Below, one piece after another: positions 325 through 64,000 of a stretch of 64,000 nt of DNA; the first letter of the stretch is position 1; the number at the start of each line of letters is the position of its first letter. Source of the DNA: Candidatus Aenigmatarchaeota archaeon (lineage in GTDB: Archaea; Aenigmatarchaeota; Aenigmatarchaeia; CG10238-14; SCSR01); assembly GCA_016187415.1 (NCBI GenBank), contig JACPJT010000007.1, positions 68,821 through 132,820 of the forward strand, given 5' to 3'. The notes beneath the pieces were generated by a model, which was not told where the DNA came from, searched no databases, and was given only the letters and a program-made list of their open reading frames with translations. The position numbers and the translations under genes were made by a program.

Positions 325-2445
325 ATGCTAAAAATCAATTACAAATCGGCCGCTATATTCGCACTTATTTTTCTCGGCATTATCGTCATTGTCGGTCTGG
401 CTGTTTTTGTCAGGTCATCAAGTCTGAAATATCCGACAGTCTTGGATTATGATCCGTGGTGGTATTTCAGGCACGCCAAAGAAATAGTCGACAACAATTA
501 TAAAATGCCCGCATGGGACATACTAAGTTATTATCCTCCTGGAAGACCTAACCAGCCATATAACGGCTGGTCTTATACGATTGCATACCTTTACAGGCTC
601 GCCAGTAGCATATCACCGTCGATTACACTAGTCCAGATAGCTAAGATATCTCCTTTGATAATGGTCAGCCTGACAGTAATTGTCAGTTACCTGTTCGGTT
701 CGCTGATATTCAAGAATAAGATTGCCGGATTGTTGCTTGCATTGTTCTCAACATTAACACCGACTTTCATAAGCGTGAGCATGGGCGGGTATAGCGAATC
801 AAAATCTGTAGTTGTGTTTTACACATTTTTCTCGTTCCTTGCATATTTTCTACTGCTAAATAACGCCAACAAGAAACTGAAATCAATACCGTTTTACATA
901 TTGGCCGTTGCCGTAAACCTCATGTTCATTTTCAACTGGGGTGCCGGATGGCTGCCTTCCCTTGTTCTATTCACAGTCATACCTGCATTCTTCGTATACA
1001 AACTTTTCGAGGAAGTGATATTCCACTTTAGATTCAAATTTAATTGGAAATACGCATTCGAAGAAACAAAACCGGTTGCCATCCCGCTATTGATAACATT
1101 TTTAATCCTAAACATAATAGGATACTTTTTGGGATTCTCTAACATGCTAGCTTCGTTGATAGGCGGCTTGCAATTCACTGGAATAGGAGGCGAACCGCTC
1201 ATAGTTAATATATCTGTGGCAGAGTTACAGAAGATAAACATCTTTTCTCTGGAAGGGTTGATGACGATAGCAACTAGAGTCGGCCTACTTCCTACACTTC
1301 TGACATCTTTCGGGTTTCTCGCGTTTCTTATCTACAAGATTTACAAAAAACAGAAAATAAATCCCCTTGAAATATTTCTGATTGTTTGGGTGTTGGTAAG
1401 CTTCTATTTGATAGCAACTGGTATAAGGTTTGCTTTGCTGTTCTCAATCGCATCTTCACTGACTGCGGCGTATATGATAGCGAATATTTTCCAGTTTGTT
1501 AAAGGGAGAAACAATCTTCTGATTGCAAGCATCTCTGCAATCTTGTTCGTGTTCCTTATAGCCTTCGTTTCTGACGGGATAAAAACAGGATACGATTCCA
1601 GCTCGGGGCTTGCAATCAGCCAGAATTGGTATAATGCGCTGGACTGGCTCAAGGCGAACGCCAATAGTGATTCGTTGGTTGCCACATGGTGGGATCCCGG
1701 CCATATTATTGCCGGCTATACGGGTCTGAAAGTTCATGCAGACGGCGCTCACTGCGGTTATTGCATTCCATACAACCATAACGTGAGAATAGTGGACATG
1801 GGAAGATTAATGTCTACTGATAATGAAACAGAATCGATTCAGATACTTCAGAAATACACGCATCTGACGCCTGAACAATGCGCCGAAGTTAAACAAACGT
1901 ATCCAACAATGCCGGCAGACGCGTGCAAGGACGTGTCGGATGTTTATGTTTTGGCCACTAATGACCTGATCGGCAAATATTACTGGATGAGTTGTTTCGG
2001 AACTTTCGACATGAAACTATGGAATGCAACCGATGGAAAGAAATGGAGTTGTGACGGCAGGAATTTCATACAAATGCCGCTAACAAGCACCAGCCAAGGA
2101 TATCCAGTATACTCGCTGGGCGACAATACGATTTCACTGTTACAGAACGGCACGCAGGTACTGGCTATCTTGAACGCACCCAGCCAAGGTATACGCAATG
2201 CCCTGATAAGCAATGTGACATATTTCCAGAACGGAGTCGAATTCCATTCGTCACCTTATACAAACAATACATTGAGCGGTCTGATATGGGTTGATCCAAG
2301 CTTTAGGGGCATATTTTTCATGGATCCGCAAATCAGGGATTCAATATTCACAAAGATGTTTTTCTTCCAAGGGAAGGGATTGGACAAATACGAATTGGTA
2401 TACCAGAACTCTGAAGTTAAAATATTCAAGGCGCACTTTGGTTAA
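325..2445 (+). CDS. aglB: Oligosaccharyltransferase AglB (STT3 family), polytopic membrane protein
   Basis: 706 aa. About 13 N-terminal TM segments are followed by a soluble C-terminal domain carrying the WWDxG catalytic motif (ATWWDPGHIIAGY). This is the typical STT3/AglB architecture. Confidence 0.8.
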   Translation: MLKINYKSAAIFALIFLGIIVIVGLAVFVRSSSLKYPTVLDYDPWWYFRHAKEIVDNNYKMPAWDILSYYPPGRPNQPYNGWSYTIAYLYRLASSISPSITLVQIAKISPLIMVSLTVIVSYLFGSLIFKNKIAGLLLALFSTLTPTFISVSMGGYSESKSVVVFYTFFSFLAYFLLLNNANKKLKSIPFYILAVAVNLMFIFNWGAGWLPSLVLFTVIPAFFVYKLFEEVIFHFRFKFNWKYAFEETKPVAIPLLITFLILNIIGYFLGFSNMLASLIGGLQFTGIGGEPLIVNISVAELQKINIFSLEGLMTIATRVGLLPTLLTSFGFLAFLIYKIYKKQKINPLEIFLIVWVLVSFYLIATGIRFALLFSIASSLTAAYMIANIFQFVKGRNNLLIASISAILFVFLIAFVSDGIKTGYDSSSGLAISQNWYNALDWLKANANSDSLVATWWDPGHIIAGYTGLKVHADGAHCGYCIPYNHNVRIVDMGRLMSTDNETESIQILQKYTHLTPEQCAEVKQTYPTMPADACKDVSDVYVLATNDLIGKYYWMSCFGTFDMKLWNATDGKKWSCDGRNFIQMPLTSTSQGYPVYSLGDNTISLLQNGTQVLAILNAPSQGIRNALISNVTYFQNGVEFHSSPYTNNTLSGLIWVDPSFRGIFFMDPQIRDSIFTKMFFFQGKGLDKYELVYQNSEVKIFKAHFG

Positions 2446-24109: not shown

Positions 24110-24160
24110 CGCAAAATGCTTAAATATAATCCAAAACAAATATTAAATCAAGTGAAATTA

Positions 24161-24442: not shown

Positions 24443-24483
24443 CATACCAAATTCATTTCTTTAAGAAACTAATAATCTTATAC

Positions 24484-24540: not shown

Positions 24541-24563
24541 CAACCGTCATAATTTTATTACAT

Positions 24564-25516: not shown

Positions 25517-25517
25517 C

Positions 25518-25784: not shown

Positions 25785-25808
25785 TTTAACGGAAAACAAA
25801 ATAATATC

Positions 25809-45191: not shown

Positions 45192-45242
45192 CCCGCGCGA
45201 TAACCAATTTATATATTCTCTACCAATTAATTAAAGAGAAAA

Positions 45243-46553
45243 ATGAAACTTAGGAAAGAAATTATACTCCTTTCGGTAATTTCCATTGTATTTCTAGCAG
45301 GTTGCACAGGTTCTTCAACGGCTGGTGGCAGTGCAGGCGTCATAGTAAAGGAATTTTCTGCATCACCACAGTCCGTAGAAAGCGGTACACCGATTACATT
45401 GACATTAACACTTAAGAACACCGGTGAAAATGATGCTACAGGTCTCGCCGCGACATTGTCAGGATTACCAACTGATTTTAGCGCATCGGCGCAAGGATCG
45501 TCAACTGGCATTAATTTATTCGGTGCAAATCCACAATTAGGCACATCGGAAGGACAGGATCAAAATATAATATGGTTAATCACAACGAAAGCCAGAAGTA
45601 CGACAAACACTTATAATGTCGGTTCCAGAATCACATACACATATGCGTCACAGGCCGAAGCTACAATAAGAGTGGTAAATGTAAATTATTATAGGACACT
45701 TTCTTCCTCAAACCAACAGTCGTTGCAACGTGGTGTGATAGCTCAACAGTCACAGAAAGGTCCACTTTCGGTCACATTTACAAGTCCGGCTCCATTAATA
45801 TCTGGTAGTCCAACCATTCCAGTTCAGATAGAAGTACAAAATATAGGGGGTGGTAGGGCCTATACAGGTTCGGATTCTACATCTTTGACTGGCTTGGATA
45901 GAGTAACAGTTTCACTTACATCATCATCTTCAAGCCTAACAAACTGTAATACCCAGATAGTCCTTATAGGCGGTAAGGGCAGGTTGACATGTTATTTGTC
46001 AGTAACAACTAATGATGTTTCCCAATATCCGATAGGAATACAGTTATCTTACAACTATCTTTTGGATGTCTCGACCAGTTTTACATTGATAAAAGCATTT
46101 AGTCCTCCTAGTAGCACGAGTGGTGCATCCGCATCTACACCACCCACGACTACACAATCGTATTGCGATAGTCCACAGCCAGCGACAGTGACTTCAGGTA
46201 CATCAGTAGTGACCCGTCAATTGTCTGCCAATAAACCAACAGAATGTATAAATTTGGCAGTGCAACCGTCTGCTGTTACACCAAGTAAAATACGTATAAC
46301 TCTGGGTGGTATAGGTTGGGACCGGGGATTCCCACAAGATCAGAAATATACACTGAAAAGGGACACTTGTTCCGGTTCTGTTGTCTGTTCGATATCTGCG
46401 TCTCTTGATATAAACGGTAATTCTATTGGAGTAACCACGGATTGTACCGATGCACCTGTCGCAGCAAATTATTGCATTGTTGCAGAAACGGCAAGATGGT
46501 ACAACAGTGGTCAGGCAACATTCACGAGAACAATTGATGTGAGTCTTGTCTAG
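45243..46553 (+). CDS. Secreted lipobox protein, tandem paralog 3 (...VFLAGC|TGSS), Thr/Ser-rich C-terminal extension
   Basis: Carries LTLKNTGENDATG and YYRTLSS. The C-terminus is rich in S/T and Cys. Confidence 0.45.
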   Translation: MKLRKEIILLSVISIVFLAGCTGSSTAGGSAGVIVKEFSASPQSVESGTPITLTLTLKNTGENDATGLAATLSGLPTDFSASAQGSSTGINLFGANPQLGTSEGQDQNIIWLITTKARSTTNTYNVGSRITYTYASQAEATIRVVNVNYYRTLSSSNQQSLQRGVIAQQSQKGPLSVTFTSPAPLISGSPTIPVQIEVQNIGGGRAYTGSDSTSLTGLDRVTVSLTSSSSSLTNCNTQIVLIGGKGRLTCYLSVTTNDVSQYPIGIQLSYNYLLDVSTSFTLIKAFSPPSSTSGASASTPPTTTQSYCDSPQPATVTSGTSVVTRQLSANKPTECINLAVQPSAVTPSKIRITLGGIGWDRGFPQDQKYTLKRDTCSGSVVCSISASLDINGNSIGVTTDCTDAPVAANYCIVAETARWYNSGQATFTRTIDVSLV

Positions 46554-52490: not shown

Positions 52491-53900
52491 CTATTCACTA
52501 AGGTCGACCAACGGTTTGTTGCTCGTTGTATTCACACCGTCGTTCTTGATAACGATATTATGATCGCCAGGGCCGAATCTTGTTGAATTTGTGATGTCTA
52601 TTCTTTGATACGGAATAACGAATCTTATTTTCACCGGTCCGGATTTCAGTTTTACATTATCAAAGTAATTTGTTCCGGGTGAAGAGAGAACTATAGTTTC
52701 ATTGGCTGCGTTGGCTATATTCGGGATTTCTCCAGATGTTGTGATTTTTTTTATCGAGGTTTCGTATAAGAATGCAATTTCAGTGGCTGTCAGCGACCTA
52801 TTCCATATCATAACCTCGTCTATAGTGCCGTTGAAAAAACTTCCAGTACCATCGGTAGATCCGATTACGATGTTGGTTGCGTTAGTCATCATACTACCAG
52901 ATCTTGAGGAAGAACTGACCGATACACCATTTTTATATAGAGTTAATGTGGTTCCGTTATATGTGCATGCAAAATGGATCCATGTATCATTTTCGAAACT
53001 TGTACTTGTACGAGGCTCTCCAACGTTACTCGAATTAGTTATGAAGCACGAAAACCTTGGACTTTCACCGACAGGATTAAGCCTTAACAGATAATCACCA
53101 AGTTTGCTGATAACTCGCCCTTCTGCATTCATATCAGTTCCTTTAACCCACGCCATCATGGTTATTGTATTGGTTATATTGAGAGTACTTGGAGTTCCTA
53201 CGTCTGTGTAATCCCCAACGCCATCATAATTTGTTGCGTTGCCAAAATTCCCTGTTACCCAACTTGGGCATGCGTTATTTGTGAAACATGCAGCCACAGT
53301 CGCATTTTTTAATGTACCGTTGTTCCTATAACCAGAGTAATCGTATGCTGTTGCTATGGAAGTGTTTATATTTCCATCAAACGGTAAAAATAAAACCAAA
53401 TCTCGCGGCTCACCCGGTACAAGATAAATCTGGCCTTTAGGATCCGTCGAAGGTATTACATCAGCTGATAATTGGAAGTTGGAAATATTACCTTCAGCAT
53501 ACCGGTTGAAATATTCCAGAAACGTGGGACTGGTTTCTATTTTCACATCGCCAGAAAAACCATCTAGAATAGTTCTTGTTCGGGGCGTATAGTCCAGATA
53601 AACCCAATCGTTTCCAGGATCCGTTCTCAACACGCCCTCTGTAATCTTAAGATGTATTGTCCTTTTTGATCCCTGTGCTTCCGATGCGACTGCTTTGACT
53701 GCAGAATCTATCAATTGCATGTTTTGCGTAGCTTCGTTGACTATACCGGCGTCTTTTGCCCTGTCGAGCATGGGATTTATGACCACCAGTACAATCGCCA
53801 TCGCCGCAAAGCCGAACGCTATAACCAGCACCATTGATATGAGCGGTGACAATCCTTTCATGGATTTAAATTTGGATTCAGTCGAAATAAAGGCGTTCAT
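52491..53900 (-). CDS. Pilin-like LamG (concanavalin A-like lectin) domain protein
   Basis: Internal start MKG|LSPLISMVLVIAFGFAAMAIVLVV (at 53861). LamG signatures: YDYSGYRNNGTL, DGVGDYTD, W.HFACTYNGTTLTLYKNG, and FNGTIDEVMIWNRSLTATEI. Confidence 0.55.
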   Translation of the reverse strand: MNAFISTESKFKSMKGLSPLISMVLVIAFGFAAMAIVLVVINPMLDRAKDAGIVNEATQNMQLIDSAVKAVASEAQGSKRTIHLKITEGVLRTDPGNDWVYLDYTPRTRTILDGFSGDVKIETSPTFLEYFNRYAEGNISNFQLSADVIPSTDPKGQIYLVPGEPRDLVLFLPFDGNINTSIATAYDYSGYRNNGTLKNATVAACFTNNACPSWVTGNFGNATNYDGVGDYTDVGTPSTLNITNTITMMAWVKGTDMNAEGRVISKLGDYLLRLNPVGESPRFSCFITNSSNVGEPRTSTSFENDTWIHFACTYNGTTLTLYKNGVSVSSSSRSGSMMTNATNIVIGSTDGTGSFFNGTIDEVMIWNRSLTATEIAFLYETSIKKITTSGEIPNIANAANETIVLSSPGTNYFDNVKLKSGPVKIRFVIPYQRIDITNSTRFGPGDHNIVIKNDGVNTTSNKPLVDLSE

Positions 53901-54514
53901 GATATTTTCACATTTTGTTGAAATTTATTTACATGCACGGCGCGCAAGCTAATCAGTCTGATATCAAAGAATCCAGTGTACGTGTCTTTATTGTTTCTTG
54001 TCTGTACCGTAATATTTTCTTCGTAATTCTCGGTTGGCAAGGTCACAGTCAGGTTGTAAGTCTGGCCGTTTGTGAATGTAAAATTATTGATCCAGATGCC
54101 GCTATCATTCAATAGTGTGGAATTTGTCTGTACAACAGACGTGTTCAGTTTGATGGTAACGTTTAGGTTTGTCTTTTCCAGAAAGTTGAAAATTGTTATG
54201 TTCATTGTCTGGTTTGTCGAGTTTGCAAGCACACCAACATATAACGCACTGAAATCCAGTGAATGCCGGTTGCTCCCAGTTCTGGTGAAATTCAGAAAAT
54301 CTATGGAGTGATCCAGTATGGTCTGCGGATTTGTTATCGACGTTTGAATTATTTCCTTTATCTCATTGTTCGTGTTTGCAAATACAGAATCTTCCAGCGA
54401 CACATCCAAAATATCCCTTTCAGTGGAAATCTGGGATATTATTGAATAAGCTTTCAGTGCAACGAGTGCTCCTATGATGATGACTGCAGTCAGTAAAAGC
54501 ACCTGTGCCTTCAT
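53897..54514 (-). CDS. Pilin-like protein (MKA|QVLLLTAVIIIGALVAL)
   Basis: 4-nt overlap with neighbours on both sides. N-glycosylation sequon-rich. Confidence 0.45.
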   Translation of the reverse strand: MKAQVLLLTAVIIIGALVALKAYSIISQISTERDILDVSLEDSVFANTNNEIKEIIQTSITNPQTILDHSIDFLNFTRTGSNRHSLDFSALYVGVLANSTNQTMNITIFNFLEKTNLNVTIKLNTSVVQTNSTLLNDSGIWINNFTFTNGQTYNLTVTLPTENYEENITVQTRNNKDTYTGFFDIRLISLRAVHVNKFQQNVKIS

Positions 54515-54909
54515 TCAAATCCCCACACATGAACTCTGATTTCTTTCGGAGTATAGTTGCCGATGTCACCAACGATGTAGTAGCTGACGCCCACTATGTC
54601 TGCCGCCTGATCGGTGACCTCGGCAGTCAGATTGTTAAATGATTTATTGTAAATTGCAACATTCAACTGGAGAGTCACAGGCAGGAACCCAGCCAGATCA
54701 CTTTTAATTCCAGTTGCGTTGTTGTTCAATACTTGGTCCCTCAAAGACCCTTTGGCTCCCAACGTGTCCAATGCTTTGTACACATCCGTCTTAATATTTG
54801 CCCTGTCTATTTCCGTGTTTCTTTGCGGTGTCATGAAAAGCAAAAAGAAAAATGTGACTATCATTACGATTGCAACCGCTGCTTCAATTGTGTAATATGT
54901 GCCCTTCAT
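54511..54909 (-). CDS. Pilin-like protein (MKG|TYYTIEAAVAIVMIVTFFF)
   Basis: Class III-like N-terminus. 132 aa. Confidence 0.5.
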   Translation of the reverse strand: MKGTYYTIEAAVAIVMIVTFFFLLFMTPQRNTEIDRANIKTDVYKALDTLGAKGSLRDQVLNNNATGIKSDLAGFLPVTLQLNVAIYNKSFNNLTAEVTDQAADIVGVSYYIVGDIGNYTPKEIRVHVWGFE

Positions 54910-56174
54910 TTTTGTGTAACCTCGACCCTAAAATCAAAGTCATTGCCTAAAATCGCTTTTACCTCTTTGTAATCACGCGAAGTTAAATTCTGCAACTTTG
55001 CCGCTGATATAGCTGTCACATTCTCTGCCGGGAATGACGTTACTGTTAGAAGTGTGGCATTCGCGACTGAAGCAATTTCAGCTGTTGTCAAAGTTTTATT
55101 ATAGATTCTGACATCATCTATTGTTCCGTTGAAATATTCAGTTGGAGAGATTCTTGTTCCTATATTTGCCGTACCACTCCCTGTATTTATTGAAAACCCT
55201 CTTGTATCGAGCAATACACCATCCAAATATGTGGACGCACTAGTTCCATCAAATGTTACCAGGACATGATGCCACTTCCCATCGTTAACTGTGGCTGTTA
55301 CAGTGTATTGTGGTGATCCCCATGAAGAAACAAAAATCGCGGCGCCCGACACACCGACTGTAAATGCTTCACCAGTGGCGGTATTGCCATACGAAACTAT
55401 TTCACCCAATCCTGACATTGTTGTGTTCACCCAAGCCGCAACAGTTCTTGGCGTAGTCCCTATCGGTAAGTTTGTTGTACCACCCGTTATACTAACGTAG
55501 TCGTCTAAACCATCGAACTTTAAGCAGCTGCCAGACTTGCAATTAGTTCCGTTGAACCACCCCGATGAAGAATTGAAATCAAAATTGGTCAAAGTTCCGT
55601 TATTCTGATAGCCGGAAGAATCCTTAGCCACAGTGCCGCCCGCCTCATCAAATTTCCAATATCCCTCGCGTGTTATATTGTGGTTTGGCGCGCTTGTGTT
55701 AGTGTTGTTTATGGAATACACGTAAACTTTCTTATTTTCATTGGCAGAGATGTTTACAATGAAGCTTACTATGGACGTGTTCAGCCACTGCCCGCTGCAA
55801 AATTCTTGATAAGAAATTTTTGATGGCAATTCATTGAATTGCTGGTCATAAACCCTGACTGTATTGTTCCACGACATTAATTTGTTGCATAGGTCATCGA
55901 ATGCCACGCTTAGAGAAACAATCTCATTCACCCTGTTGGTCCCGTTAGTTTCCTGCAAGAGAAGAGGTATTCTGTATAAATCCGTGGTCACTCTTTCGTT
56001 GGTTGGGATGCCGCTGCTGCCGAAAAGTATGTCGAATAAACTTTTCGTTTTGTCCCTGAGTTCGATAATCGTCACGGATTCGGGTGTTCGTGTGAAATAA
56101 TTTATGGTGGACACCAGCACAAGTGCCACAAAAATTAAGAAGACGGATATTGCAACTATGAATGAAATGTCCAT
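54906..56174 (-). CDS. LamG (concanavalin A-like lectin) domain surface protein
   Basis: Carries GYWKFDEAGGTVAKDSSGYQNNGTL, CLKFDGLDDYV, WHHVLVTFDGTSASTYLDG, and FNGTIDDVRIYNKTLTTAEI. N-terminal signal anchor. Confidence 0.55.
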   Translation of the reverse strand: MDISFIVAISVFLIFVALVLVSTINYFTRTPESVTIIELRDKTKSLFDILFGSSGIPTNERVTTDLYRIPLLLQETNGTNRVNEIVSLSVAFDDLCNKLMSWNNTVRVYDQQFNELPSKISYQEFCSGQWLNTSIVSFIVNISANENKKVYVYSINNTNTSAPNHNITREGYWKFDEAGGTVAKDSSGYQNNGTLTNFDFNSSSGWFNGTNCKSGSCLKFDGLDDYVSITGGTTNLPIGTTPRTVAAWVNTTMSGLGEIVSYGNTATGEAFTVGVSGAAIFVSSWGSPQYTVTATVNDGKWHHVLVTFDGTSASTYLDGVLLDTRGFSINTGSGTANIGTRISPTEYFNGTIDDVRIYNKTLTTAEIASVANATLLTVTSFPAENVTAISAAKLQNLTSRDYKEVKAILGNDFDFRVEVTQK

Positions 56175-56182
56175 AAATATAC

Positions 56183-58039
56183 TTATTCTCTAATAATATT
56201 TCTGCTTAGCTTGGTCCTGACTATGATTGCAATTATGATGACAATTGCCGTAATAGCCGCCAACACGGTTATTAGTATAATATAGTCGTTTGTCAAGGTA
56301 AGTGAAATTACAGGGAGTGTAATACCGCTTGTTTGGGTTGTCTTTTCATTCTCTATGCCAGTTATGCCTGTCGACGGATTGCCGGTGCTTGAACTAGATC
56401 CGCTATTTACAGTAGCATTATTAGACGGGCTGCTGCTGGCCGATGAAGAAGCCCCGGCAAGATTGACTACACTGATGTTCTTGGATTCCACATCTATATT
56501 TCCCGCTTTGTCCTCAGCCGATATGCTAAGAGTGTATCTGCCATCATTCAGTTGTCTGGAATTGAAACTGGTCGAACATAAAAAGCTTGAGGGCGTCTGG
56601 GGAGTGCATGTCATATTTCCAGCGAAGGAACTGAGAATAAAGCCAACTCTGCTTTGATTCAGATTAACGTCGATTATACTAGCTGTTATTGTAAAATCTC
56701 CGCTGACATCCGAAACAGGTTCTGTAATTGTCACTTTCGGTTTTGTATTATCGATGACAGCTGTAATAGTTGAAAAGATGTCGGAGTTAAGATTGTTTAT
56801 AGCCCTAGCTCTTATTGTATAACCGCCGTCAGCGAAAGTGATTGTATCAAGCGGATATGAGCAACTGGTGAAATTTATATCGCATGTCATATTCTTAGTT
56901 ATATTATTTCCAGGACTTTCCACAGACAATCCTACATAGTTAACAACGCCTGTATTTGCAAGAGTTGACTGGACAAGTGCAGTGCCGCCTACAACAGCAT
57001 TATTTTTGGGTTGGGTGATGGAGATGAACGGTTGCGAGTTGATGGTCCTGATGGTGACATTTGCGGACTTGGAGTTCCCGGCGTTGTCCGTCACGGTAAA
57101 CACGATTGTATGATTTCCGTCCTGTAAACTGGATGTTGGTAGCACGGCGCTGCAAGTTGAATTCTGTCTAGTGCCGGTGCATCCCAGCGAACCCGACATG
57201 CTTTCTACGTTGTATAGGACTTTAGCAAGATTCACACCAGAATAATAATCACTGACATTTGATGTCAGTTGCGCATTGCCGCTTAGTACCGTGGGTGACG
57301 GAGAGATGATTTTGATATCAGGAATTTCATTGTCGACCATCACATTAATGTTGGTCGATGCATTATTGTTTACATTGTCAGAAGCGTTTACATACAATGT
57401 CAATGTTTGATTGTTTGAAAAAATTGTAGTGTCCAGATATTTTTGGAAGCTGTTCATGCTTACATTGTTGATGGTGTTCCATTGGGAATTATCCAAGGAA
57501 TATTTAACAGTATTATTATTCACGCCCGAAGCGGCATCGGTTACTGTTATGGAGATTGTTTGATTGCCGCTGACATAGCTGTTATTGACAGGGCTTGAGA
57601 ACGAGATTACAGGAGGGTTCCTGTCCAAGGTAAATATTAGCGGGCTGGTTGAATTGCCATCATAGCCCGTTACACCGTTTGTGTCATTCGCCTGGAAATA
57701 AAACAATTCAATCGTGTCGGATCCGGCAATAGCAAATGATATAGTCTTACTGCATTTCCATTCATTGGTGGTATTCGCACACGGCATGGTATAGTTGTCC
57801 CAGCTATCCCCTTGTTGATAAGCATTCTGCGATATTATATACAGCAAAACCGAGCCGGCATTCAGACTGTTCTCTGTGATGTTGATCGAAAGCGTCTTCG
57901 TGCCGCCGCCTATGTAAACATTATTGCTTGGTTGGGGATCATGAAGCAGGGGTGTAGCATTGACCATGTTTGAAAACAATATGCTCGAAAAAAGGAAGAC
58001 AATCACCAAACACGACAATTTCATATAAGTTATTTGCAA
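56183..58039 (-). CDS. Large surface protein with repeated Ig-like modules, Ser-rich stalk and C-terminal TM anchor
   Basis: Sec-type signal. Repeated V..D.(A/Y)SGVN modules. SSSASSSPS...TGNPSTG linker followed by a TM and a basic tail. Confidence 0.5.
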   Translation of the reverse strand: MQITYMKLSCLVIVFLFSSILFSNMVNATPLLHDPQPSNNVYIGGGTKTLSINITENSLNAGSVLLYIISQNAYQQGDSWDNYTMPCANTTNEWKCSKTISFAIAGSDTIELFYFQANDTNGVTGYDGNSTSPLIFTLDRNPPVISFSSPVNNSYVSGNQTISITVTDAASGVNNNTVKYSLDNSQWNTINNVSMNSFQKYLDTTIFSNNQTLTLYVNASDNVNNNASTNINVMVDNEIPDIKIISPSPTVLSGNAQLTSNVSDYYSGVNLAKVLYNVESMSGSLGCTGTRQNSTCSAVLPTSSLQDGNHTIVFTVTDNAGNSKSANVTIRTINSQPFISITQPKNNAVVGGTALVQSTLANTGVVNYVGLSVESPGNNITKNMTCDINFTSCSYPLDTITFADGGYTIRARAINNLNSDIFSTITAVIDNTKPKVTITEPVSDVSGDFTITASIIDVNLNQSRVGFILSSFAGNMTCTPQTPSSFLCSTSFNSRQLNDGRYTLSISAEDKAGNIDVESKNISVVNLAGASSSASSSPSNNATVNSGSSSSTGNPSTGITGIENEKTTQTSGITLPVISLTLTNDYIILITVLAAITAIVIIIAIIVRTKLSRNIIRE

Positions 58040-58050
58040 TTGTGAATAAA

Positions 58051-58947
58051 TTACTTCCAGACACAGATCCTGACTGTGGAAACCTTTAGCGTGCCGTCTG
58101 GATTCTGGATCAATCGCGGCTCCTCATAACATGCTATATTATTGGCCGTCGTTTCTGTGGTCTTCTGCGTGCCGACCGTCTGTTTTACTGTAAACGTGGT
58201 TGAGTTGGTCCATGTTACGCTGGTTGTGGGGTCTGTCACGTTGGCAATGACTTGGTAAGGACCTATAGAGGATGGTGCAGTAAAGTTGCACGTATAGCCG
58301 CCAGTTGAATTAGTCGCAGTTGAGCATACAAGAGTGGAATTGACATATATGTTGACATCCGACGGATCGGCAGAAGTGTCTACTGCAGTGCCGTCTGATC
58401 TTGTCGCCACTCCCTGCAGGCCAACGGACTCATTCCAGATTGGCTGGGTATTATTCAGAATCATAGTTATGGTGACGTTGAATGATTCTTGGACGCACAC
58501 TTGATTGGTGTAATATCCGCATGCTCCGATATGCGTATCGTTCTGTTGATAGAACGACAAGGCGCATGTCTCCCTTGATAAGCAAGACGCTCTTATGTTG
58601 GTTACAATGGGATTACTGGCCGTTTTTGCGCACACGACATCATCATAATAATATGATGACGCTGCATGGGAATTTGCCGTCTGATACATGGAAACAAGCC
58701 GGCCTTCACCGGCGTTGCACGAGTATGTCCTAACTGTAGCGGACGTTATTTCTGTGCAGCAGATTTTGGTGGTATATTCAGAATCGCAACTGCCGACATG
58801 CGAATTGTTCTGTTGGTACACGTTGAACACACAGGTTTCTCCCCCATTGCACGTCGTCCTGAATGTGCATGTCGGTATCGCCTCGGATCCGACTGCCATT
58901 GTCAGCGAGAAAAAGAAGAAAATCAGGAGCATAAAGTAAGCTTTCAT
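58051..58947 (-). CDS. Secreted Cys-rich protein with three internal Cys-motif repeats
   Basis: Signal peptide. Motif C...(F/M)YQ(Q/T)N.(S/T)H.G.C repeated three times. Confidence 0.4.
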   Translation of the reverse strand: MKAYFMLLIFFFFSLTMAVGSEAIPTCTFRTTCNGGETCVFNVYQQNNSHVGSCDSEYTTKICCTEITSATVRTYSCNAGEGRLVSMYQTANSHAASSYYYDDVVCAKTASNPIVTNIRASCLSRETCALSFYQQNDTHIGACGYYTNQVCVQESFNVTITMILNNTQPIWNESVGLQGVATRSDGTAVDTSADPSDVNIYVNSTLVCSTATNSTGGYTCNFTAPSSIGPYQVIANVTDPTTSVTWTNSTTFTVKQTVGTQKTTETTANNIACYEEPRLIQNPDGTLKVSTVRICVWK

Positions 58948-59007
58948 AAAATTTAATTACCGTCAGACGAAATAAGTTTATAAATCCGCAATCCAAACAA
59001 TTGTTAA

Positions 59008-59601
59008 ATGGTTATTAAAAAAACTATAGGCATTGCAGGAGTTTTTCTTATAGGCATCGTGCTCGGTATCGTGATAAGTTCATTGTCACCGCTCAACTTA
59101 ACTACGCTGGTCAATGGCGACGTTTCATCGAAAGTAAAAAGTCTTTACGAACTTGTCAATCCCGGAGTTAGTGTAAGCGTTGTCAAGATAGACGACGTAA
59201 ACGGGATGTATAAAGTCCTTTTCAAGGCCGTTGACGTATCGGGCGGCGTAACTTATCGGGAAACTTTCATCACAAAAGACGGCAAACTTCTTACAGAAAA
59301 TATGGTTCAGGTGGATCCTTCCATATCTCAGTTGAATAAGACCCATAATTTTGTGGATTGCCTCGCGACTAAAGATGTCAAGGTAGCAGGCATTGCCAAT
59401 GATACGGTCACATTGATGCAGTTTAACGCTCTTGGCGGCTCTTATGCGACAAAATTATATCTCAGTTGCGACGGCGGGCAGGTGCAGCAATGTGTCAACA
59501 GCGGCATAACTCAGGTGCCAGCGGTAATTTACAACAGTAAGATATATGCGGGTGTCCAGACAATCCAGTTCTTGGGTAACCTGACCGGGTGCACTTTCTA
59601 A
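59008..59601 (+). CDS. Membrane-anchored extracytoplasmic protein, possibly thioredoxin-fold (thiol-disulfide oxidoreductase-like)
   Basis: Signal anchor. Cys pairs (VDCLATKD; CDGGQVQQC). C-terminal QVPAVIY resembles the cis-Pro region of Trx/Grx folds. Weak. Confidence 0.25.
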   Translation: MVIKKTIGIAGVFLIGIVLGIVISSLSPLNLTTLVNGDVSSKVKSLYELVNPGVSVSVVKIDDVNGMYKVLFKAVDVSGGVTYRETFITKDGKLLTENMVQVDPSISQLNKTHNFVDCLATKDVKVAGIANDTVTLMQFNALGGSYATKLYLSCDGGQVQQCVNSGITQVPAVIYNSKIYAGVQTIQFLGNLTGCTF

Positions 59602-59738
59602 GTGAACTCACTGCACACCAATTCTCAAACGCGTGATCACAGCAATCATGCATATCAGAAGAAAATAGCATTTAAATTCAGCAAATGCGATATATTAAAT
59701 AACTGCTCTTTAAGGGTAGTTTGAATCGATATGCATAA

Positions 59739-59975
59739 ATGGTTAGCAAAGAGAGCCGTCTCATGAAAAACAACTTTAGAGAGAGAATATTGGAATTATT
59801 AAAATCCAGGCCGGACGGTCTGACGATTTTGGACATATCAATACAATTGCGCGCCAACCGCAACACGATCACAAAATACATCTATGAGCTTTCCGGCGCA
59901 GGCGTGATTAATCAGCGAAGAATAGGCGTTGCAAAGCTCTGCTCGCTTTCAAAATATGCTCGGAGGGATAAATGA
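59739..59975 (+). CDS. Small winged-helix transcriptional regulator
   Basis: 78-aa wHTH (ILELLKSRPDGLTILDISIQLRANRNTITKYIYELSGAGVI). Its stop overlaps the start of the giant ORF (ATGA). Confidence 0.55.
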   Translation: MVSKESRLMKNNFRERILELLKSRPDGLTILDISIQLRANRNTITKYIYELSGAGVINQRRIGVAKLCSLSKYARRDK

Positions 59976-62900
59976 TGAGGAAATTGTTTATAGTCTCATT
60001 TTCGATTGCATTCATGATATCTTTAAATGCCGTTGTAGCTGCGAATGTCCAGTCTCATCCGTTATCGCAATTATATCCTTTCGACGTCAACCTCAATGTC
60101 ACTGGCGTGAACATAACCAATGTATCCTATGTATTTTTCGGGAACAATTCTGTTGATACCTATCTTTACCGTTCTGGGACGAACACACTTCAGACCGCCA
60201 GCAATCTGGTGGTCACAGGCGGGTGGATCAATTCCACAAGCATCAACGCATCGTCGCTGTTGAATTCGCAGAATATAATTTCGGCAAGCTGGGTCAATGC
60301 GACTAACTTGAATGCCACTAATAACGCTACAATAGGAGGATATGTCGGCGTCGGGATCGCATTGCCGCAATCCAAGCTGCATGTCCAAGGCGCATCAACA
60401 ACGTTGCTGAATGTAAGCAATTCCACTACATCATATCTGCTGATCGACGATTCAAATCAGATTGTCAATTTCTTCGCGCCGATAACCCAGACGGAAGGCA
60501 AGGTGAACATAGGAGGACCTGGCAGCATAATTTCAGATACGCCCGGTTCAAACCAACTCTTGACTTTTGACAGTTTCTTCGGCTTCAGGCTTGGCGCAGA
60601 CCAGATAACTTTGAATCTTGAAGTCGAGAATGGAGGCTGGATATCCCCTCCAATCATGTCGTTTAACAGGCAAGGACAAGGAGTAGGCATCAACGTCTTC
60701 ACCCCAACTAGCGCCTATCTCGATGTCAACACTTCTGCAACAGCAAAACCTGCGCTAATAGTAAGAGGCAGCGCAGCATCCACTTCCAATATCACAGAAT
60801 GGAGGGACGGCGGCAACAACAAGCTGGTGAGCATAGACAATCAAGGATCGTTATTGGTTGGAAACGGCACAACAGGATTGTTCGCAAATGCGTCATCAGG
60901 CAAGGTCGGGATAGGGATACTGACGCCGACTACAAAATTGGATGTTGTCGGGCAGATAAACGCCACAAAAATTACTGTGAATGGTTCCGATGTTGTTTCA
61001 ATCGCAAATTCGACAGCAGGCAGCAACGGTCTTGTCGGGTACTGGACATTTGACGAGGGTGCTGGGAGCAACGTTTATGACGCTTCCGGTTATGACGATA
61101 CGGGCGTACTGGTGAACATGAACATTACAGGCAATGCAACAAGCGGTTGGAATGTCACCGGCTGCAAGTCTGGCGGATGCATGAATTTTGACGGAATTAA
61201 TGATTATATTAACGTCACGGATAATCCAGTTCTAAATATTTCGGGTTCGATTACGCTTTCAGCTTGGGTAAAAATTGGGGTCGGTTCAGGCGGCGGAATG
61301 ATACTGGCCAAGCAACAGGACTTGGCAGGCACAGCAGACGACAGCGGATATTTTCTATCTGGCGCTAGTTCACCAAGATTTTTAATCGACAACGCCGGCA
61401 CAACTAGCGATATATTCGGCACTACCGATTTGAGGGACAACAAGTGGCATTTGTTGACAGGGACTTACGATTATTCAACAGGCATCACAAGAGTCTATGT
61501 TGACGGAAAGCAGGAAAATTCAGGCACATTCTCCACCACGATAGGCTTGATAAACAAGAGTTTCATAATCGGCGACAGGGCGCAATTGGATTCGCATTTC
61601 AACGGAACCATCGACGAAGCCAAGATATACAACAGGGCGCTGTCTTCAGACGAAATAAGGGCGGAGTTTATTGCAGGCAGTGGCGGGCAGGTTATTTTGT
61701 CCGCGAAGAATCTGGTTGTTGGCAACTGGGTTAATACATCCAACATCAACGTCAGCTCTACCTTCAACGCGCCGAACATTGTCGCAGGCGGCGGCTGGAT
61801 AAACGGGACGAATTTTAATGCATCCAGTACTATTTACGGCACCAACTTGATATCATACGGCTGGGTGAACACGTCTGCATTGAATATTACAGGAACTAAT
61901 GCAGCTGTCACCCCGTTGACAGTGCAGGCAAAATCAGGCCAGACAGCAAACATAACAATGGTGCAAAACGCTTCAGGATTTCCGTTTATGTGGGTGAACT
62001 CGTCAGGCAGCCTGAATCTGCAGCAGCCATCAGACAGCATCCCGAGTTTTTCAGCATACGGTTATGATGGTCGTGTTGTCACACAGTTTTATTGGAACGC
62101 CGGAGGCGGCAATTTAATGTATTGGCAGGCACCTGGTTCGAATCTTCAAATAAGTGCGGGAGGTGCTATAAATATCTTACCCGTCGACACACTAACTATC
62201 ACGGGCTTGGATTCCACGCATGGCAATAATGTAAGGCTTGTCGTCAAGGGCACAACAGACCAGACAGGTAATCTGACGGAATGGCGAGATTCCGGCGCAA
62301 ATAAGTTGGCGTCTGTCAGTTCCAAGGGCGACCTCTTGATAGGAAACAATACAATTGGGTTATACGCCAATGCGACGACAGCCAACGTTGGCATCGGAAC
62401 CACATCCATCGGCAACTACAAGCTGAACGTCATCGGCGACATAAACGCCTCATGGGGCAACTTCACCAATCTCAATATCTCAAGCACATTCAACGCTCCC
62501 AACGTAGTGTCGGCAGGAGGATGGATAAATGCAAGCAATGTGAATGCGACAAATGCAGTCTATGCAACGAACGGCACATTCTACAGTTCTATAATACAAA
62601 AAGCTACATCATCCCCAGCAATCATAGGCTCCGTCAGCGATACAAGAATCAATTCTTCATACAGCGTATACGTCTCCGGCAAATACGCCTACGTCACTTC
62701 CTATAACAACAAAAGTCTAAGCGTCATTGACATCTCCGACCCAACATCACCGAATATAGCGGGCTCCATAAGCGACGGTCGCATAGGAAACGCACTGGCA
62801 GTTCAGGTCTCCGGCAAATACGCCTACGTCACAGACAACGGCTTTAATTTCACAGTGATTGATGTCTCCAACCCGTCCAATCCAACTTTCATCAGCTCTA

Positions 62901-64000
62901 TTAAAGACACAACCAATCTCGGCGTTGGTTATTCGATATACGTCTCCGGCAAATACGCCTACGTCCCAGCTACTATATCAAACAGATTCACAATCATTGA
63001 CATCTCCGACCCTTCCTCGCCAACCGTCGTGGGGTCGCTTAACGACAACAGGCTTTCGCACATTGAGCAAGCTTATATCGTCGGCAAATACGCCTACGTC
63101 ACTGGTTGGGGCAACAATAGTGTCAGCGTAGTGGATATGTCAAATCCAACATCGCCCGCCATCGTAGGCTCGGTGGAAAACAGCACTTATCTTACACAGG
63201 TGGATGGGATATACATCTCCGGCAAATACGCCTACGTCACCTCCTATAACGGAGGATCAAGTTATTTCACAATCATCAATGTTTCGAATCCAACTTCGCC
63301 CACCATTGTAAGCGCAGTCACGGACTCGACCAAGTTCAATTATCTTCCAAATGTCCAAGTCTCCGGCAAATACGCCTACGTCGTATCAAATTTGTATAAT
63401 GGGTTGACAGTGATTGATGTTTCCAACGCATCATCTCCAACCATTGTCGGCACAGTCAGCGACGGCACGAATTTATTAAGTTCCTTTAATATCTACGTCT
63501 CCGGCAAATACGCCTACGTCGTAGGCAATGGCAATGCTGCCCGTCTTACTGTAATTGATATCGGCGGCATTGATTCTTCATCCGCAAACATAGGAGACTT
63601 GTCAGCTTCGACAATAGACGTCACAGACAATTTGGATGTTGGAAACAATCTTTATGTCCGTAGCGGCATTAATGTGGGTCCTGGCGGGATTAGAACAGAC
63701 GGACCAGTAAGCCTAACCAACAATACTTTTGTTACAACCGAGTCTGGAAGAATTGGAGTAGGAACAAACACCACTGGCAACTATAAACTGAATGTGATAG
63801 GAGACATCAATGCGACTTGGCTCAACGCGACTAATCTCAATACGACAGGCACGTCATTCGTGAACAATCTGCAATCTTATAATTGGCTCAACGCCACCAA
63901 CCTGAACGCATCTGGCTGGACGAATACAACGAACTTGAATGTCTCCAGCAACGCTTATGTCAACCATTCGTTGTGCGTAGGAAATATATGCAATACAACA
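59972..64000 (+). CDS. Giant secreted surface protein (partial, continues beyond window): Sec signal, beta-rich Asn/Ser/Thr region, LamG domain, LVIVD-type beta-propeller repeats
   Basis: Hand translation from ATG 59972 is stop-free to 64000 (more than 1340 aa). LamG signatures: GYWTFDEGAGSNVYDASGYDDTG, MNFDGINDY, KWHLLTGTYDYSTGITRVYVDGK, and FNGTIDEAKIYNRALSSDEI. There are seven or more 45-48-aa repeats of YVSGKYAYV(T/V)...(F/L)(T/S)VIDVSNP(T/S)SP.IVGS. Confidence 0.6.
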   Translation, partial: MMRKLFIVSFSIAFMISLNAVVAANVQSHPLSQLYPFDVNLNVTGVNITNVSYVFFGNNSVDTYLYRSGTNTLQTASNLVVTGGWINSTSINASSLLNSQNIISASWVNATNLNATNNATIGGYVGVGIALPQSKLHVQGASTTLLNVSNSTTSYLLIDDSNQIVNFFAPITQTEGKVNIGGPGSIISDTPGSNQLLTFDSFFGFRLGADQITLNLEVENGGWISPPIMSFNRQGQGVGINVFTPTSAYLDVNTSATAKPALIVRGSAASTSNITEWRDGGNNKLVSIDNQGSLLVGNGTTGLFANASSGKVGIGILTPTTKLDVVGQINATKITVNGSDVVSIANSTAGSNGLVGYWTFDEGAGSNVYDASGYDDTGVLVNMNITGNATSGWNVTGCKSGGCMNFDGINDYINVTDNPVLNISGSITLSAWVKIGVGSGGGMILAKQQDLAGTADDSGYFLSGASSPRFLIDNAGTTSDIFGTTDLRDNKWHLLTGTYDYSTGITRVYVDGKQENSGTFSTTIGLINKSFIIGDRAQLDSHFNGTIDEAKIYNRALSSDEIRAEFIAGSGGQVILSAKNLVVGNWVNTSNINVSSTFNAPNIVAGGGWINGTNFNASSTIYGTNLISYGWVNTSALNITGTNAAVTPLTVQAKSGQTANITMVQNASGFPFMWVNSSGSLNLQQPSDSIPSFSAYGYDGRVVTQFYWNAGGGNLMYWQAPGSNLQISAGGAINILPVDTLTITGLDSTHGNNVRLVVKGTTDQTGNLTEWRDSGANKLASVSSKGDLLIGNNTIGLYANATTANVGIGTTSIGNYKLNVIGDINASWGNFTNLNISSTFNAPNVVSAGGWINASNVNATNAVYATNGTFYSSIIQKATSSPAIIGSVSDTRINSSYSVYVSGKYAYVTSYNNKSLSVIDISDPTSPNIAGSISDGRIGNALAVQVSGKYAYVTDNGFNFTVIDVSNPSNPTFISSIKDTTNLGVGYSIYVSGKYAYVPATISNRFTIIDISDPSSPTVVGSLNDNRLSHIEQAYIVGKYAYVTGWGNNSVSVVDMSNPTSPAIVGSVENSTYLTQVDGIYISGKYAYVTSYNGGSSYFTIINVSNPTSPTIVSAVTDSTKFNYLPNVQVSGKYAYVVSNLYNGLTVIDVSNASSPTIVGTVSDGTNLLSSFNIYVSGKYAYVVGNGNAARLTVIDIGGIDSSSANIGDLSASTIDVTDNLDVGNNLYVRSGINVGPGGIRTDGPVSLTNNTFVTTESGRIGVGTNTTGNYKLNVIGDINATWLNATNLNTTGTSFVNNLQSYNWLNATNLNASGWTNTTNLNVSSNAYVNHSLCVGNICNTT
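62678..63520. repeat. Seven in-frame copies of nucleotide-perfect 18-mer ggcaaatacgcctacgtc (spacing 135-144 nt) marking LVIVD repeat cores
   Basis: Copies at 62678, 62813, 62948, 63083, 63221, 63365 and 63503. Flanking codons diverge. Confidence 0.85.

What the first reader, a model, noticed from the sequence alone, without database searches (positions are those of the whole stretch)
59739..64000. Giant, hyper-glycosylation-prone surface protein (LamG plus LVIVD beta-propeller) coupled to a wHTH regulator
A stop-free frame runs from 59972 to the window end (more than 1340 aa). It begins with a Sec-like signal. There is an N-x-S/T sequon roughly every 10 residues in long stretches. There is a LamG domain near residues 360-560, then seven or more LVIVD-type repeats. 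The ORF overlaps the stop of a 78-aa wHTH regulator by ATGA, suggesting co-regulation. AglB, the N-oligosaccharyltransferase, is encoded in the same window at 325. The ORF is absent from the six-frame track only because it has no stop within the window.
Basis: partly seen in the sequence, partly recalled or inferred. Interest (0 to 1): 0.7.

Follow-up and report, generated by a model that had tools for sequence, protein, structure and literature searches.

The report
Giant archaeal surface fibre with regulator
The window ends inside a 2414-residue secreted, sugar-site-rich fibre protein of a tiny symbiotic (DPANN) archaeon; this is a known kind of putative host-attachment protein, but it is always paired with, and in some relatives fused to, a small DNA-binding protein, which is new.

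Summary
Frame 59972-64000 is open for 1343 codons and equals the first 1343 residues of GenBank MBI2547602.1 (HYW23_04125, "hypothetical protein", 2414 aa) from a Candidatus Aenigmarchaeota MAG.

Architecture:
- a Sec-type signal;
- a conserved N-domain (mature end x-x-QSHPLSQ);
- Asn-rich shaft repeats;
- two LamG domains;
- a seven-bladed LVIVD propeller;
- two unassigned C-terminal domains;
- no C-terminal anchor.

Sequons are about 1.7-1.9 times the composition expectation, and ten times the density of the other ORFs in the window. The whole neighbouring gene cluster shares this enrichment, while eight other exported proteins in the window almost lack sequons.

The ATGA-coupled wHTH gene is a conserved partner. 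A wHTH gene lies just upstream of a giant family member in four other loci. It is fused in frame to the signal segment in three relatives.

Best reading: a modular, N-glycosylated surface fibre or adhesin, held by its conserved N-terminus, with a dedicated wHTH autoregulator.

The protein class is known for DPANN. The wHTH coupling and fusion and the QSHPLS N-domain family appear undescribed. Function is inferred, not shown.

The parts
59739..59975 (+). Small basic winged-helix-turn-helix gene. It is 78 aa from 59739; the likely true start is 59763, giving 70 aa with pI 10.5.
   Evidence: Pfam HTH_69, HTH_11 and RPA_C match below cutoff. The AF2 model has pLDDT 82.7 with an H-H-H-wing layout. 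The best folds are ArsR/SmtB and MarR repressors, TM about 0.7. There are 17 stand-alone homologues of 70-83 aa. The family consensus starts at MENNFRERI.
59962..59975 (+). Translational-coupling junction: SD-like GGAGGG, then ATGA, where the giant gene's start overlaps the wHTH stop.
   Evidence: The same ATGA junction with a purine-rich SD occurs in L006 and twice in L011.
59972..64000 (+). The first 1343 codons of a 2414-codon gene (MBI2547602.1, HYW23_04125), cut by the window end.
   Evidence: One search shows no stop. P0085 is identical over all 1343 aa. Its accession and locus tag directly follow those of the wHTH gene.
59972..60043 (+). Sec-type signal peptide, aa 1-24 (MMRK / hydrophobic core / VAA before NVQSHP).
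   Evidence: It is the only segment with Kyte-Doolittle >1.6 in all 2414 aa. It aligns with the ALA|Q cleavage motif of homologues. No signal-peptide predictor was available, so this is an inference.
60044..60223 (+). Conserved N-domain, aa 25-84 (x-x-QSHPLSQ...NITNVSYVFFGNNSVDTYLYRS). It is the only part conserved across the family.
   Evidence: It is 56-69% identical to P0016, P0033, P0036 and P0038, while the rest of the protein is not alignable to them. Seventeen columns are invariant. 65 cluster representatives match at E<=1e-3.
60224..60337 (+). Shaft repeat block 1 (W-x-N-x-S/T, about 22-aa period, two sequons per unit).
   Evidence: family D3.
61190..61657 (+). LamG / concanavalin-A-like lectin domain 1, aa 407-562.
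   Evidence: Pfam Laminin_G_3, 97.8 bits against a cutoff of 27.6.
61727..61927 (+). Shaft repeat block 2, aa 586-652.
62453..62587 (+). Shaft repeat block 3, aa 828-872.
62624..63646 (+). Seven-bladed LVIVD beta-propeller, aa about 885-1225.
   Evidence: Pfam LVIVD, 181 bits against a cutoff of 20.2. Seven GKYAYV blades. Seven DNA copies at 135-144 nt spacing.
63818..64000 (+). Shaft repeat block 4, aa 1283 onward, which continues past the window.
59008..59601 (+). Conserved 197-aa membrane-anchored neighbour of unknown function.
   Evidence: 46-55% identical orthologues sit in the same position in L006, L007 and L010. Genes of 196-197 aa occupy that position in L011 and L013. No Pfam or NCBIfam hit.
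58051..58947 (-). Conserved 298-aa Cys-rich secreted neighbour.
   Evidence: 35-62% identity in L006, L007, L010. 10 sequons against 5.4 expected.
56183..58039 (-). Conserved 618-aa Ig-like (Big_13/Big_7) surface protein with a C-terminal TM anchor. It is a candidate membrane partner of the fibre.
   Evidence: Pfam. Synteny. The C-terminal hydrophobic stretch is visible.
52491..56174 (-). Four sequon-rich genes (469, 205, 132 and 422 aa). The N-termini of at least three look like class III (type IV pilin-like) signals by eye. Two of the four carry LamG.
   Evidence: Pfam Laminin_G_3 and DUF7289. N-termini and sequon z-scores of 2.9-3.6. Synteny of the 205-, 132- and 422-aa genes in L006 and L007; same-size genes in L011 and L013.
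325..2445 (+). Distant STT3/AglB-like oligosaccharyltransferase candidate.
   Evidence: TIGR04154, E=7.5e-20 but 70.9 bits against a cutoff of 450. WWDPG at aa 455. No Pfam hit.

Best explanation
The ORF is the 5' 56% of a 2414-residue protein of a Candidatus Aenigmarchaeota (DPANN) archaeon.

The protein is exported by a cleavable Sec signal. Its layout is beads on a string:
- a conserved 60-100-residue N-domain;
- Asn-rich shaft repeats (W-x-N-x-S/T and G-x-V-G-I-G-T..P..L.V motifs of the kind found in phage-tail-fibre-like proteins);
- two LamG lectin domains;
- a seven-bladed LVIVD propeller;
- two unassigned C-terminal domains.

It has no C-terminal anchor. I therefore infer that the conserved N-domain holds it on the cell, probably through the conserved neighbouring membrane proteins and pilin-like proteins. 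The variable distal lectin and propeller domains would bind partner or host surface glycans. The many sequons, mostly in the shafts, are inferred to be N-glycosylated by the STT3-like enzyme.

The upstream 70-aa basic wHTH is a dedicated partner. It is translationally coupled through the ATGA overlap. It most likely binds DNA to autoregulate the two-gene operon.

Shown here: the sequence, domains, full length, sequon statistics, synteny and fusions.
Inferred: export, glycosylation, N-terminal attachment, adhesion, and DNA binding or autoregulation.
For: - Full length and identity.
- Domains.
- Single N-terminal hydrophobic segment, and no C-terminal one.
- The N-domain is conserved at 56-69% identity while the rest differs in length and content (789 to 4412 aa).
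- 90% of the protein is homologous to P0088, which GenBank calls 'tail fiber domain-containing protein' and which hits tail-fibre PHROGs at E=8e-76.
- Sequons: 101 against 59.5+-6.0 in shuffles (maximum 82), with 57 of the reversed motif. The cluster has 3.94 per 100 aa against 0.45 elsewhere in the window.
- Synteny of the locus in L006, L007 and L010 by sequence, and in L011 and L013 by gene order and size.
- wHTH and giant adjacency: the window, L006, L011, L013 and L014/L015.
- In-frame fusion in P0036, P0038 and P0041.
- The fused N-termini of P0036 and P0038 pass the Pfam cutoffs for HTH_IclR and HTH_24.
- wHTH fold and charge.
- Literature: LamG expansions linked to type IV pili loci and to host interaction in DPANN (PMC5498576, PMC7443923). 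LVIVD was defined in archaeal surface proteins (PMC2447325).
Against: - There is no experimental datum for this protein or any close relative.
- AF2 of residues 1-360 failed (pLDDT 43.8), so a fibrous or trimeric shaft is not demonstrated.
- P0085 itself has no PHROG hit and no PDB sequence hit.
- It lacks the Peptidase_S74 chaperone domain that some relatives carry.
- 36 of the 101 sequons lie inside one structural repeat. Part of the excess could therefore be structural.
- The oligosaccharyltransferase is far below curated cutoffs.
- No operator was identified: the ATGCATATCA motif is not significant in the window.
- No host is known for this MAG.
Confidence: 0.62

Rival explanations
1. The protein is a structural envelope component (S-layer or sheath protein), not an adhesin. 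The propeller and LamG domains build a lattice.
For: It is large, secreted, sequon-rich and beta-rich. LVIVD and related propellers occur in archaeal envelope proteins (PMC2447325). It lies in a conserved surface-protein locus.
Against: It has no C-terminal TM or PGF-CTERM anchor. Family members in the same locus position range from 789 to more than 3484 aa with different domain content. That is hard to reconcile with a conserved lattice. Only the N-terminal 100 residues are conserved.
Confidence: 0.1
2. The sequon richness is a by-product of an Asn/Ser/Thr-rich beta-helical repeat (Asn ladders). The protein is not unusually glycosylated.
For: 36 of the 101 sequons sit within 22 residues after a W-x-N-x-S/T repeat motif. 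The propeller and the C-terminal domains are at the composition expectation. The candidate AglB is very divergent.
Against: N-x-S/T outnumbers the reversed S/T-x-N by 101 to 57. LamG domains and non-repetitive neighbours are also enriched, with z of 1.8-3.6. Four sequon positions are conserved in the N-domain. Eight other exported proteins in the window have 1 sequon against 24.5 expected. That avoidance makes sense only if sequons are actually used in this organism.
Confidence: 0.2
3. The gene is a viral or proviral tail-fibre gene, not a cellular surface protein.
For: It carries tail-fibre-type GNVGIGTTSP motifs. The homologue P0088 hits tail-fibre PHROGs and has an S74-like C-terminus. GenBank names P0088 a tail fibre domain protein.
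Against: P0085 has no PHROG hit. It has a Sec signal. It sits in a chromosomal locus that is syntenic across several MAGs, next to pilin-like and Ig-domain membrane proteins, and no virion genes were seen nearby. Its GC content (0.469) is like that of the secretion-ATPase gene elsewhere in the window (0.481).
Confidence: 0.04
4. The wHTH is not a transcriptional regulator of the giant gene. It could be a cytoplasmic handle that tethers or targets the pre-protein. Alternatively the adjacency could reflect a mobile cassette that travels with the gene's 5' end.
For: In the fused relatives the wHTH sits directly before the signal segment. The 5' ends of family genes are duplicated around small inserted genes in many members, which shows recombination at this spot. 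No significant operator was found.
Against: The fold and the basic charge match DNA-binding ArsR/MarR-type domains. The arrangement is stable across relatives whose wHTH is only 35-50% identical. Translational coupling is conserved.
Confidence: 0.18

Closest known systems
DPANN secreted LamG / beta-propeller proteins proposed to mediate host interaction (for example in Mia14 'ARMAN', PMC5498576, and in Ca. Nanohalobium, PMC7443923)
   Same: It is from a DPANN archaeon. It is secreted and carries ConA-like LamG and beta-propeller domains. It lies next to pilin-like genes, and its content is strain-variable.
   Different: This protein is far larger (2414 aa). It has a family-specific conserved N-domain and tail-fibre-like shafts. 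It also has an obligatory wHTH partner, which those papers do not report in the passages I read.
LVIVD-repeat cell-surface proteins of Methanosarcina (Pfam PF08309; PMC2447325)
   Same: Seven tandem repeats of about 45 aa score far above the Pfam cutoff, in a secreted archaeal protein.
   Different: Here the propeller is one bead in a much longer modular fibre. The lineage and the overall architecture are different.
Phage tail fibres / 'tail fiber domain-containing proteins' (PHROG 9942 and 18345; Peptidase_S74 intramolecular chaperone)
   Same: It has a conserved N-terminal attachment end, a variable distal binding end, and repeated GNVGIGTTSP..L.V motifs. It is homologous (35% identity over about 1200 aa) to P0088, which matches these PHROGs.
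   Different: P0085 has no PHROG hit and no S74 domain. It has a Sec signal and lies in a cellular locus. Trimeric fibre structure was not shown.
SPEARE proteins of Ca. Nanohaloarchaeum antarcticus (PMC6642349, as cited in PMC7443923)
   Same: They are giant DPANN proteins thought to mediate attachment to a host.
   Different: No protease or restriction-endonuclease domains were detected by Pfam. No homology was seen.
ToxR/CadC-type membrane-tethered one-component regulators (compared from my own knowledge)
   Same: In the relatives P0036, P0038 and P0041 the order is N-terminal wHTH, one hydrophobic segment, then a large extracytoplasmic region.
   Different: In the window the wHTH is a separate soluble protein. 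In the fused forms the hydrophobic segment is of signal-peptide length and keeps an A-x-A cleavage motif. The wHTH is ArsR/MarR-like, not OmpR-like.
ArsR/SmtB and MarR wHTH repressors
   Same: The fold matches (TM about 0.7). The protein is basic and small, and it sits at the head of the operon it would control.
   Different: It has only 70 aa and lacks the extra dimerisation helices. All profile scores are below curated cutoffs. No metal or ligand site is evident.

Membership tests
LVIVD repeat proteins (PF08309) | Tandem LVIVD repeats of about 42 aa scoring above the Pfam gathering cutoff. | tested here: met
   181.2 bits against 20.2, in 6 stretches. Seven blades by motif and by DNA repeat.
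Laminin_G_3 / ConA-like lectin (PF13385) | Profile match above the gathering cutoff. | tested here: met
   97.8 bits against 27.6 at aa 407-562. A second copy lies in the full-length protein, 175.6 bits in total.
Phage tail fibre / S74-chaperone fibres | A match to tail-fibre profiles and/or a C-terminal Peptidase_S74 intramolecular chaperone. | tested here: not met
   P0085 has no PHROG hit at E<=1e-3 and no PF13884 in Pfam. Only its homologue P0088 matches.
Phage tail fibre / S74-chaperone fibres | Trimeric beta-helical shaft. | tested here: inconclusive
   The monomer AF2 model of aa 1-360 had pLDDT 43.8.
Archaeal S-layer glycoprotein | A C-terminal TM segment or PGF-CTERM/archaeosortase signal. 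| tested here: not met
   No hydrophobic window other than aa 4-26 in all 2414 aa. The protein ends ...ISGYEY.
SPEARE proteins | Serine protease, adhesion and restriction-endonuclease domains in one giant protein. | tested here: not met
   Pfam finds only LVIVD and Laminin_G_3 above cutoff.
TafC fimbrial protein (NF052521) and choice-of-anchor B (TIGR04312) | A score above the NCBIfam curated cutoff. | tested here: not met
   54.5 bits against 410, and 59.2 against 100. The matches cover only the LamG domain or the propeller.
ArsR/SmtB or MarR family regulator (the wHTH) | A profile score above cutoff. | tested here: not met
   HTH_metalloreg 20.1 bits against 55. Pfam HTH_69 25.7 against 27.
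ArsR/SmtB or MarR family regulator (the wHTH) | Winged-helix DNA-binding fold. | tested here: met
   AF2 pLDDT 82.7. Foldseek top hits are ArsR, CadC, CzrA, MexR and PcaV, with TMq 0.67-0.74.
ArsR/SmtB or MarR family regulator (the wHTH) | Sequence-specific DNA binding and repression. | not testable with these tools
   Only a weak candidate inverted motif at 59648-59657 and 59727-59736, which is not significant.
AglB / STT3 oligosaccharyltransferase (ORF 325-2445) | An STT3 profile above cutoff and the WWDxG catalytic motif. | tested here: inconclusive
   No Pfam hit. TIGR04154 at E=7.5e-20 but 70.9 bits against 450. WWDPG is present at aa 455.
ToxR-like membrane-tethered transcription factor | The DNA-binding domain, a TM segment and an external domain in one polypeptide. 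| tested here: not met
   In the window the wHTH and the giant gene are in different frames, separated by a stop. The feature is met only in the relatives P0036, P0038 and P0041.

The most novel reading that the evidence does not exclude
The wHTH and the giant fibre form one signalling unit.

In the fused relatives, a cytoplasmic wHTH is tethered through the signal segment to a giant external fibre. The DNA-binding domain would then be delivered, or released by signal-peptidase processing, in proportion to export of the fibre or to its contact with a host. This would be a ToxR- or Notch-like contact or export sensor in episymbiotic archaea.

The window's ATGA-coupled two-gene form would be the split version of the same circuit.
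Probability: 0.12. Interest if true: 0.8.

Novelty: new variant of a known kind. Interest (0 to 1): 0.5.

Why it matters
DPANN archaea live attached to other cells, and how they recognise hosts is an open question.

This locus supplies a concrete, widespread candidate: 65 cluster representatives match the N-domain. The family has a conserved attachment end and swappable lectin and propeller ends.

It also comes with a dedicated small DNA-binding partner, so its regulation could be tested directly. The in-frame fusions are a Rosetta-stone type of argument that the two proteins work together.

The sharp split in the window between sequon-rich and sequon-free exported proteins suggests selective use of N-glycosylation, which could be checked by glycoproteomics.

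If none of this holds, the protein remains an ordinary member of the large, poorly characterised class of DPANN surface proteins.

Tried and rejected
- **Extending the contig.** The look-up of encoding contigs with the 78-aa, 70-aa and 197-aa proteins returned only short Logan contigs that all break inside the giant gene. An exact 53-mer from the window end was absent from genome contigs and metagenome contigs. The full length came instead from the representative library and was confirmed by accession.
- **AF2 of residues 1-360 with a 10-sequence alignment.** pLDDT was 43.8, so the model was unusable and no fold search was done.
- **PDB sequence search of the full protein.** No hit.
- **PHROGs on the full protein.** No hit.
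- **Pfam on the C-terminal 218 aa.** No hit.
- **Operator search upstream of the wHTH.** ATGCATATCA occurs as an inverted pair flanking the likely promoter, and similar words occur in L011 and L013. However, there are 11 window matches against 7.6 expected, and the four-locus alignment is poor. I kept it only as a lead.
- **Provirus reading.** Rejected for lack of viral neighbours and because the chromosomal synteny is conserved.
- **TafC fimbrial and choice-of-anchor B labels.** Rejected because the scores are below cutoff and cover single domains only.
- **Paralogues in the window.** No second copy of the N-domain or of the wHTH was found.

Full report
**Observation**

Translating 59972-64000 gives 1343 codons without a stop. 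The ORF lister omits it only because it runs off the window. The 78-aa ORF 59739-59975 ends in TGA, overlapping the giant gene's ATG as ATGA, and GGAGGG lies just upstream. Five Logan contigs from different sequencing runs are 100% identical to window 57165-61769. The frame offset between the two genes is therefore real.

**Source and true length**

Exact look-ups place the window in a Candidatus Aenigmarchaeota MAG, with locus tags HYW23_03735 to HYW23_04120 on a 212,430-bp contig. Direct extension failed. An exhaustive HMMER search with the first 125 residues returned P0085, 2414 aa. P0085 is identical to the window ORF at all 1343 positions. It is MBI2547602.1, HYW23_04125, "hypothetical protein", the tag that follows the wHTH gene.

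The window therefore holds 56% of the gene. The only hydrophobic segment in the 2414 residues is the N-terminal signal. There is no C-terminal TM or PGF-CTERM segment.

**Anatomy**

- Pfam gives LVIVD at 181 bits (cutoff 20.2) and Laminin_G_3 at aa 407-562. A second Laminin_G_3 domain lies near aa 1570-1775, placed by a sub-threshold Pentaxin match at 1686-1774 and by eye.
- Seven blades carry GKYAYV. They appear as seven DNA copies spaced 135-144 nt apart.
- Between the globular domains lie Asn-rich shaft blocks: 17 W-x-N-x-S/T motifs with a period of about 22 aa, and 10 G-x-V-G-I-G/N-T..P..L.V motifs.
- The last 230 residues form two similar Cys-containing domains with no Pfam match.
- There is no PDB sequence hit and no PHROG hit for the protein itself.
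- 90% of the protein is homologous to P0088, a 4412-aa Aenigmarchaeota protein with the same N-terminus. The main alignment is 35% identical over aa 793-1960, E=5.5e-154.
- P0088 matches tail-fibre PHROGs (E=8e-76 and 4e-47). GenBank names it a tail fiber domain-containing protein.
- An AF2 model of residues 1-360 was unusable, with pLDDT 43.8. A fibrous or trimeric shaft therefore remains an inference from motifs and homology.

**A family defined by its N-terminus**

Residues 1-110 are 56-69% identical to several DPANN proteins whose remainders differ in length and content. Seventeen columns are invariant, including Q27, H29, P30 and S32. There are conserved sequon positions at N42, N47, N50 and N58.

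The exhaustive search found 65 cluster representatives at E<=1e-3, from 183 to 4412 aa. Most begin with a signal peptide followed by Q-x-QSHPLS(Q/E).

A conserved N-terminus, a variable distal part and no C-terminal anchor form the pattern of attachment fibres. In such fibres the conserved end docks on the producer and the variable end binds the target. That reading is an inference.

**Sequons**

- The full protein has 101 N-x-S/T. Shuffles give 59.5+-6.0, with a maximum of 82 in 500. The reversed motif occurs 57 times.
- Enrichment is about twofold in the shafts and modules, 1.6-2.3-fold in the LamG domains, and absent in the propeller and the C-terminal domains. 36 sequons belong to the W-N repeat.
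- Across the window, the eight cluster genes from 52491 to 64000 (the wHTH, which has no sequon, is not counted) carry 145 sequons (3.94 per 100 aa; 78.9 expected). All other ORFs carry 0.45 per 100 aa.
- Eight other exported proteins (pilin-like and lipobox proteins) have 1 sequon against 24.5 expected, Poisson 6e-10.
- This two-way bias argues that sequons are functional in this organism. A structural contribution of the repeat cannot be excluded.
- The proposed AglB (325-2445) is only a distant STT3 relative. It has a WWDPG motif.

**The wHTH partner**

- The family consensus begins MENNFRERI, which favours the 59763 start and a 70-aa protein of pI 10.5.
- AF2 gives a confident three-helix-plus-wing model. 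It is closest to ArsR/SmtB and MarR repressors, with TM about 0.7. All profile scores are below cutoff.
- Homologues are 70-83-aa stand-alone proteins.
- Every locus with enough context shows the same partnership:
  - L006: a 69-aa wHTH overlapping a 789-aa family member by ATGA.
  - L011: a wHTH, then a second HTH protein, then a giant of at least 1147 aa, all overlapping by 4 bp.
  - L013: a wHTH, an inserted ParE pair, then a giant of at least 3484 aa.
  - L014/L015: a wHTH 62 bp upstream of a gene of about 907 aa that runs to the contig end. I did not translate that gene, so its family membership is unchecked.
- In P0036, P0038 (on a 723-kb contig) and P0041 (seen on 8 contigs), the wHTH is fused in frame to the signal segment and the QSHPLS domain. 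The N-termini of P0036 and P0038 pass the Pfam cutoffs for HTH_IclR and HTH_24.
- The fused genes keep a Shine-Dalgarno-like element and a start codon before the signal segment. They also keep a hydrophobic core of about 16 residues and the A-x-A|Q motif. I infer that both gene forms yield the same mature fibre.

Gene fusion plus conserved translational coupling is strong evidence for a functional link. That the link is autoregulation is inferred. A candidate inverted motif at the promoter is not statistically supported.

**Locus context**

The genes upstream are syntenic in L006, L007 and L010 by sequence, and in L011 and L013 by gene order and size. They are, in order:
- a pilin-like LamG protein of 469 aa;
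- proteins of 205 and 132 aa;
- a LamG protein of 422 aa;
- an Ig-like, TM-anchored protein of 618 aa;
- a Cys-rich protein of 298 aa;
- a membrane protein of 197 aa.

Their functions are not known. They are candidates for the structure on which the fibre sits. Published work notes LamG expansions next to type IV pilus loci in DPANN and proposes a role in host interaction (PMC5498576, PMC7443923). LVIVD repeats were first described in archaeal surface proteins (PMC2447325).

**Verdict**

The protein class is known: large secreted LamG and propeller proteins of DPANN with tail-fibre-like repeats.

Three features appear new, as far as the held literature shows:
- the QSHPLS N-domain family;
- its obligatory wHTH partner, with recurrent in-frame fusions;
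- the sequon dichotomy in the window.

I rate the finding as a new variant of a known kind, with interest 0.5. A low-probability but attractive reading is that the wHTH and the fibre form an export-coupled or contact-coupled signalling unit.

Noticed in passing
window 22355-28232 and 43376-46553, compared with 52491-64000: Exported proteins fall into two classes. Eight pilin-like or lipobox proteins have 1 N-x-S/T against 24.5 expected (Poisson 6e-10). The eight sequon-rich cluster genes have 145 against 78.9. This suggests active sequon avoidance in one class and enrichment in the other.
   Followed up: partly
L007 6001-6800; L013 9900-10600; proteins P0016, P0080, P0086, P0089, P0090, P0100: The 5' end of QSHPLS-family genes (signal peptide plus the first 35-60 codons) occurs in 2-3 tandem copies. 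The copies are separated by small inserted genes, for example antitoxin-like ORFs on the opposite strand, and gene callers read through these as junk. The 5' end looks like an insertion or recombination hot spot.
   Followed up: partly
L011 9216-9821; protein P0079, residues 1-60: A second gene lies between the wHTH and the giant gene. Its C-terminal wHTH scores 26.6 bits against 22 for HTH_IclR. Its N-terminal region (PDLIGY...AFEEKK) looks by eye like a PD-(D/E)xK nuclease motif, which I did not test. The same N-terminal module is fused upstream of a family member in P0079.
   Followed up: partly
window 59008-59601 (+): This is a conserved 197-aa membrane-anchored protein. By eye its C-terminal half resembles a thioredoxin-like domain that has lost the CxxC motif. 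It has no Pfam or NCBIfam hit. Orthologues are present in L006, L007 and L010, and genes of 196-197 aa occupy the same position in L011 and L013.
   Followed up: no
window 59648-59657 (+) and 59727-59736 (-): ATGCATATCA and its near-perfect inverse flank the likely TATA-like region upstream of the wHTH gene. Similar TATGCATATCA words occur upstream of the wHTH in L011 and L013. The motif is not significant window-wide: 11 matches against 7.6 expected.
   Followed up: partly
window 17533-22062 and 25809-28232: A type II/IV secretion ATPase (T2SSE, E=3e-16), a 653-aa ORF with no Pfam hit, and four small ORFs with pilin-like N-termini (MKA/MKG followed by a hydrophobic stretch) suggest a type IV pilus-like system about 30 kb upstream of the fibre locus.
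   Followed up: no
window 325-2445 (+): The STT3-like protein is so divergent that Pfam misses it. Only TIGR04154 (70.9 bits against a cutoff of 450) and a WWDPG motif at aa 455 identify it. GenBank calls it hypothetical.
   Followed up: partly
P0085 residues 2186-2414 (beyond the window): Two tandem Cys-containing domains of about 105 aa, ending ...SGYE(I/Y), form the distal tip. They have no Pfam hit and no counterpart in P0088. They are a candidate receptor-binding tip.
   Followed up: partly
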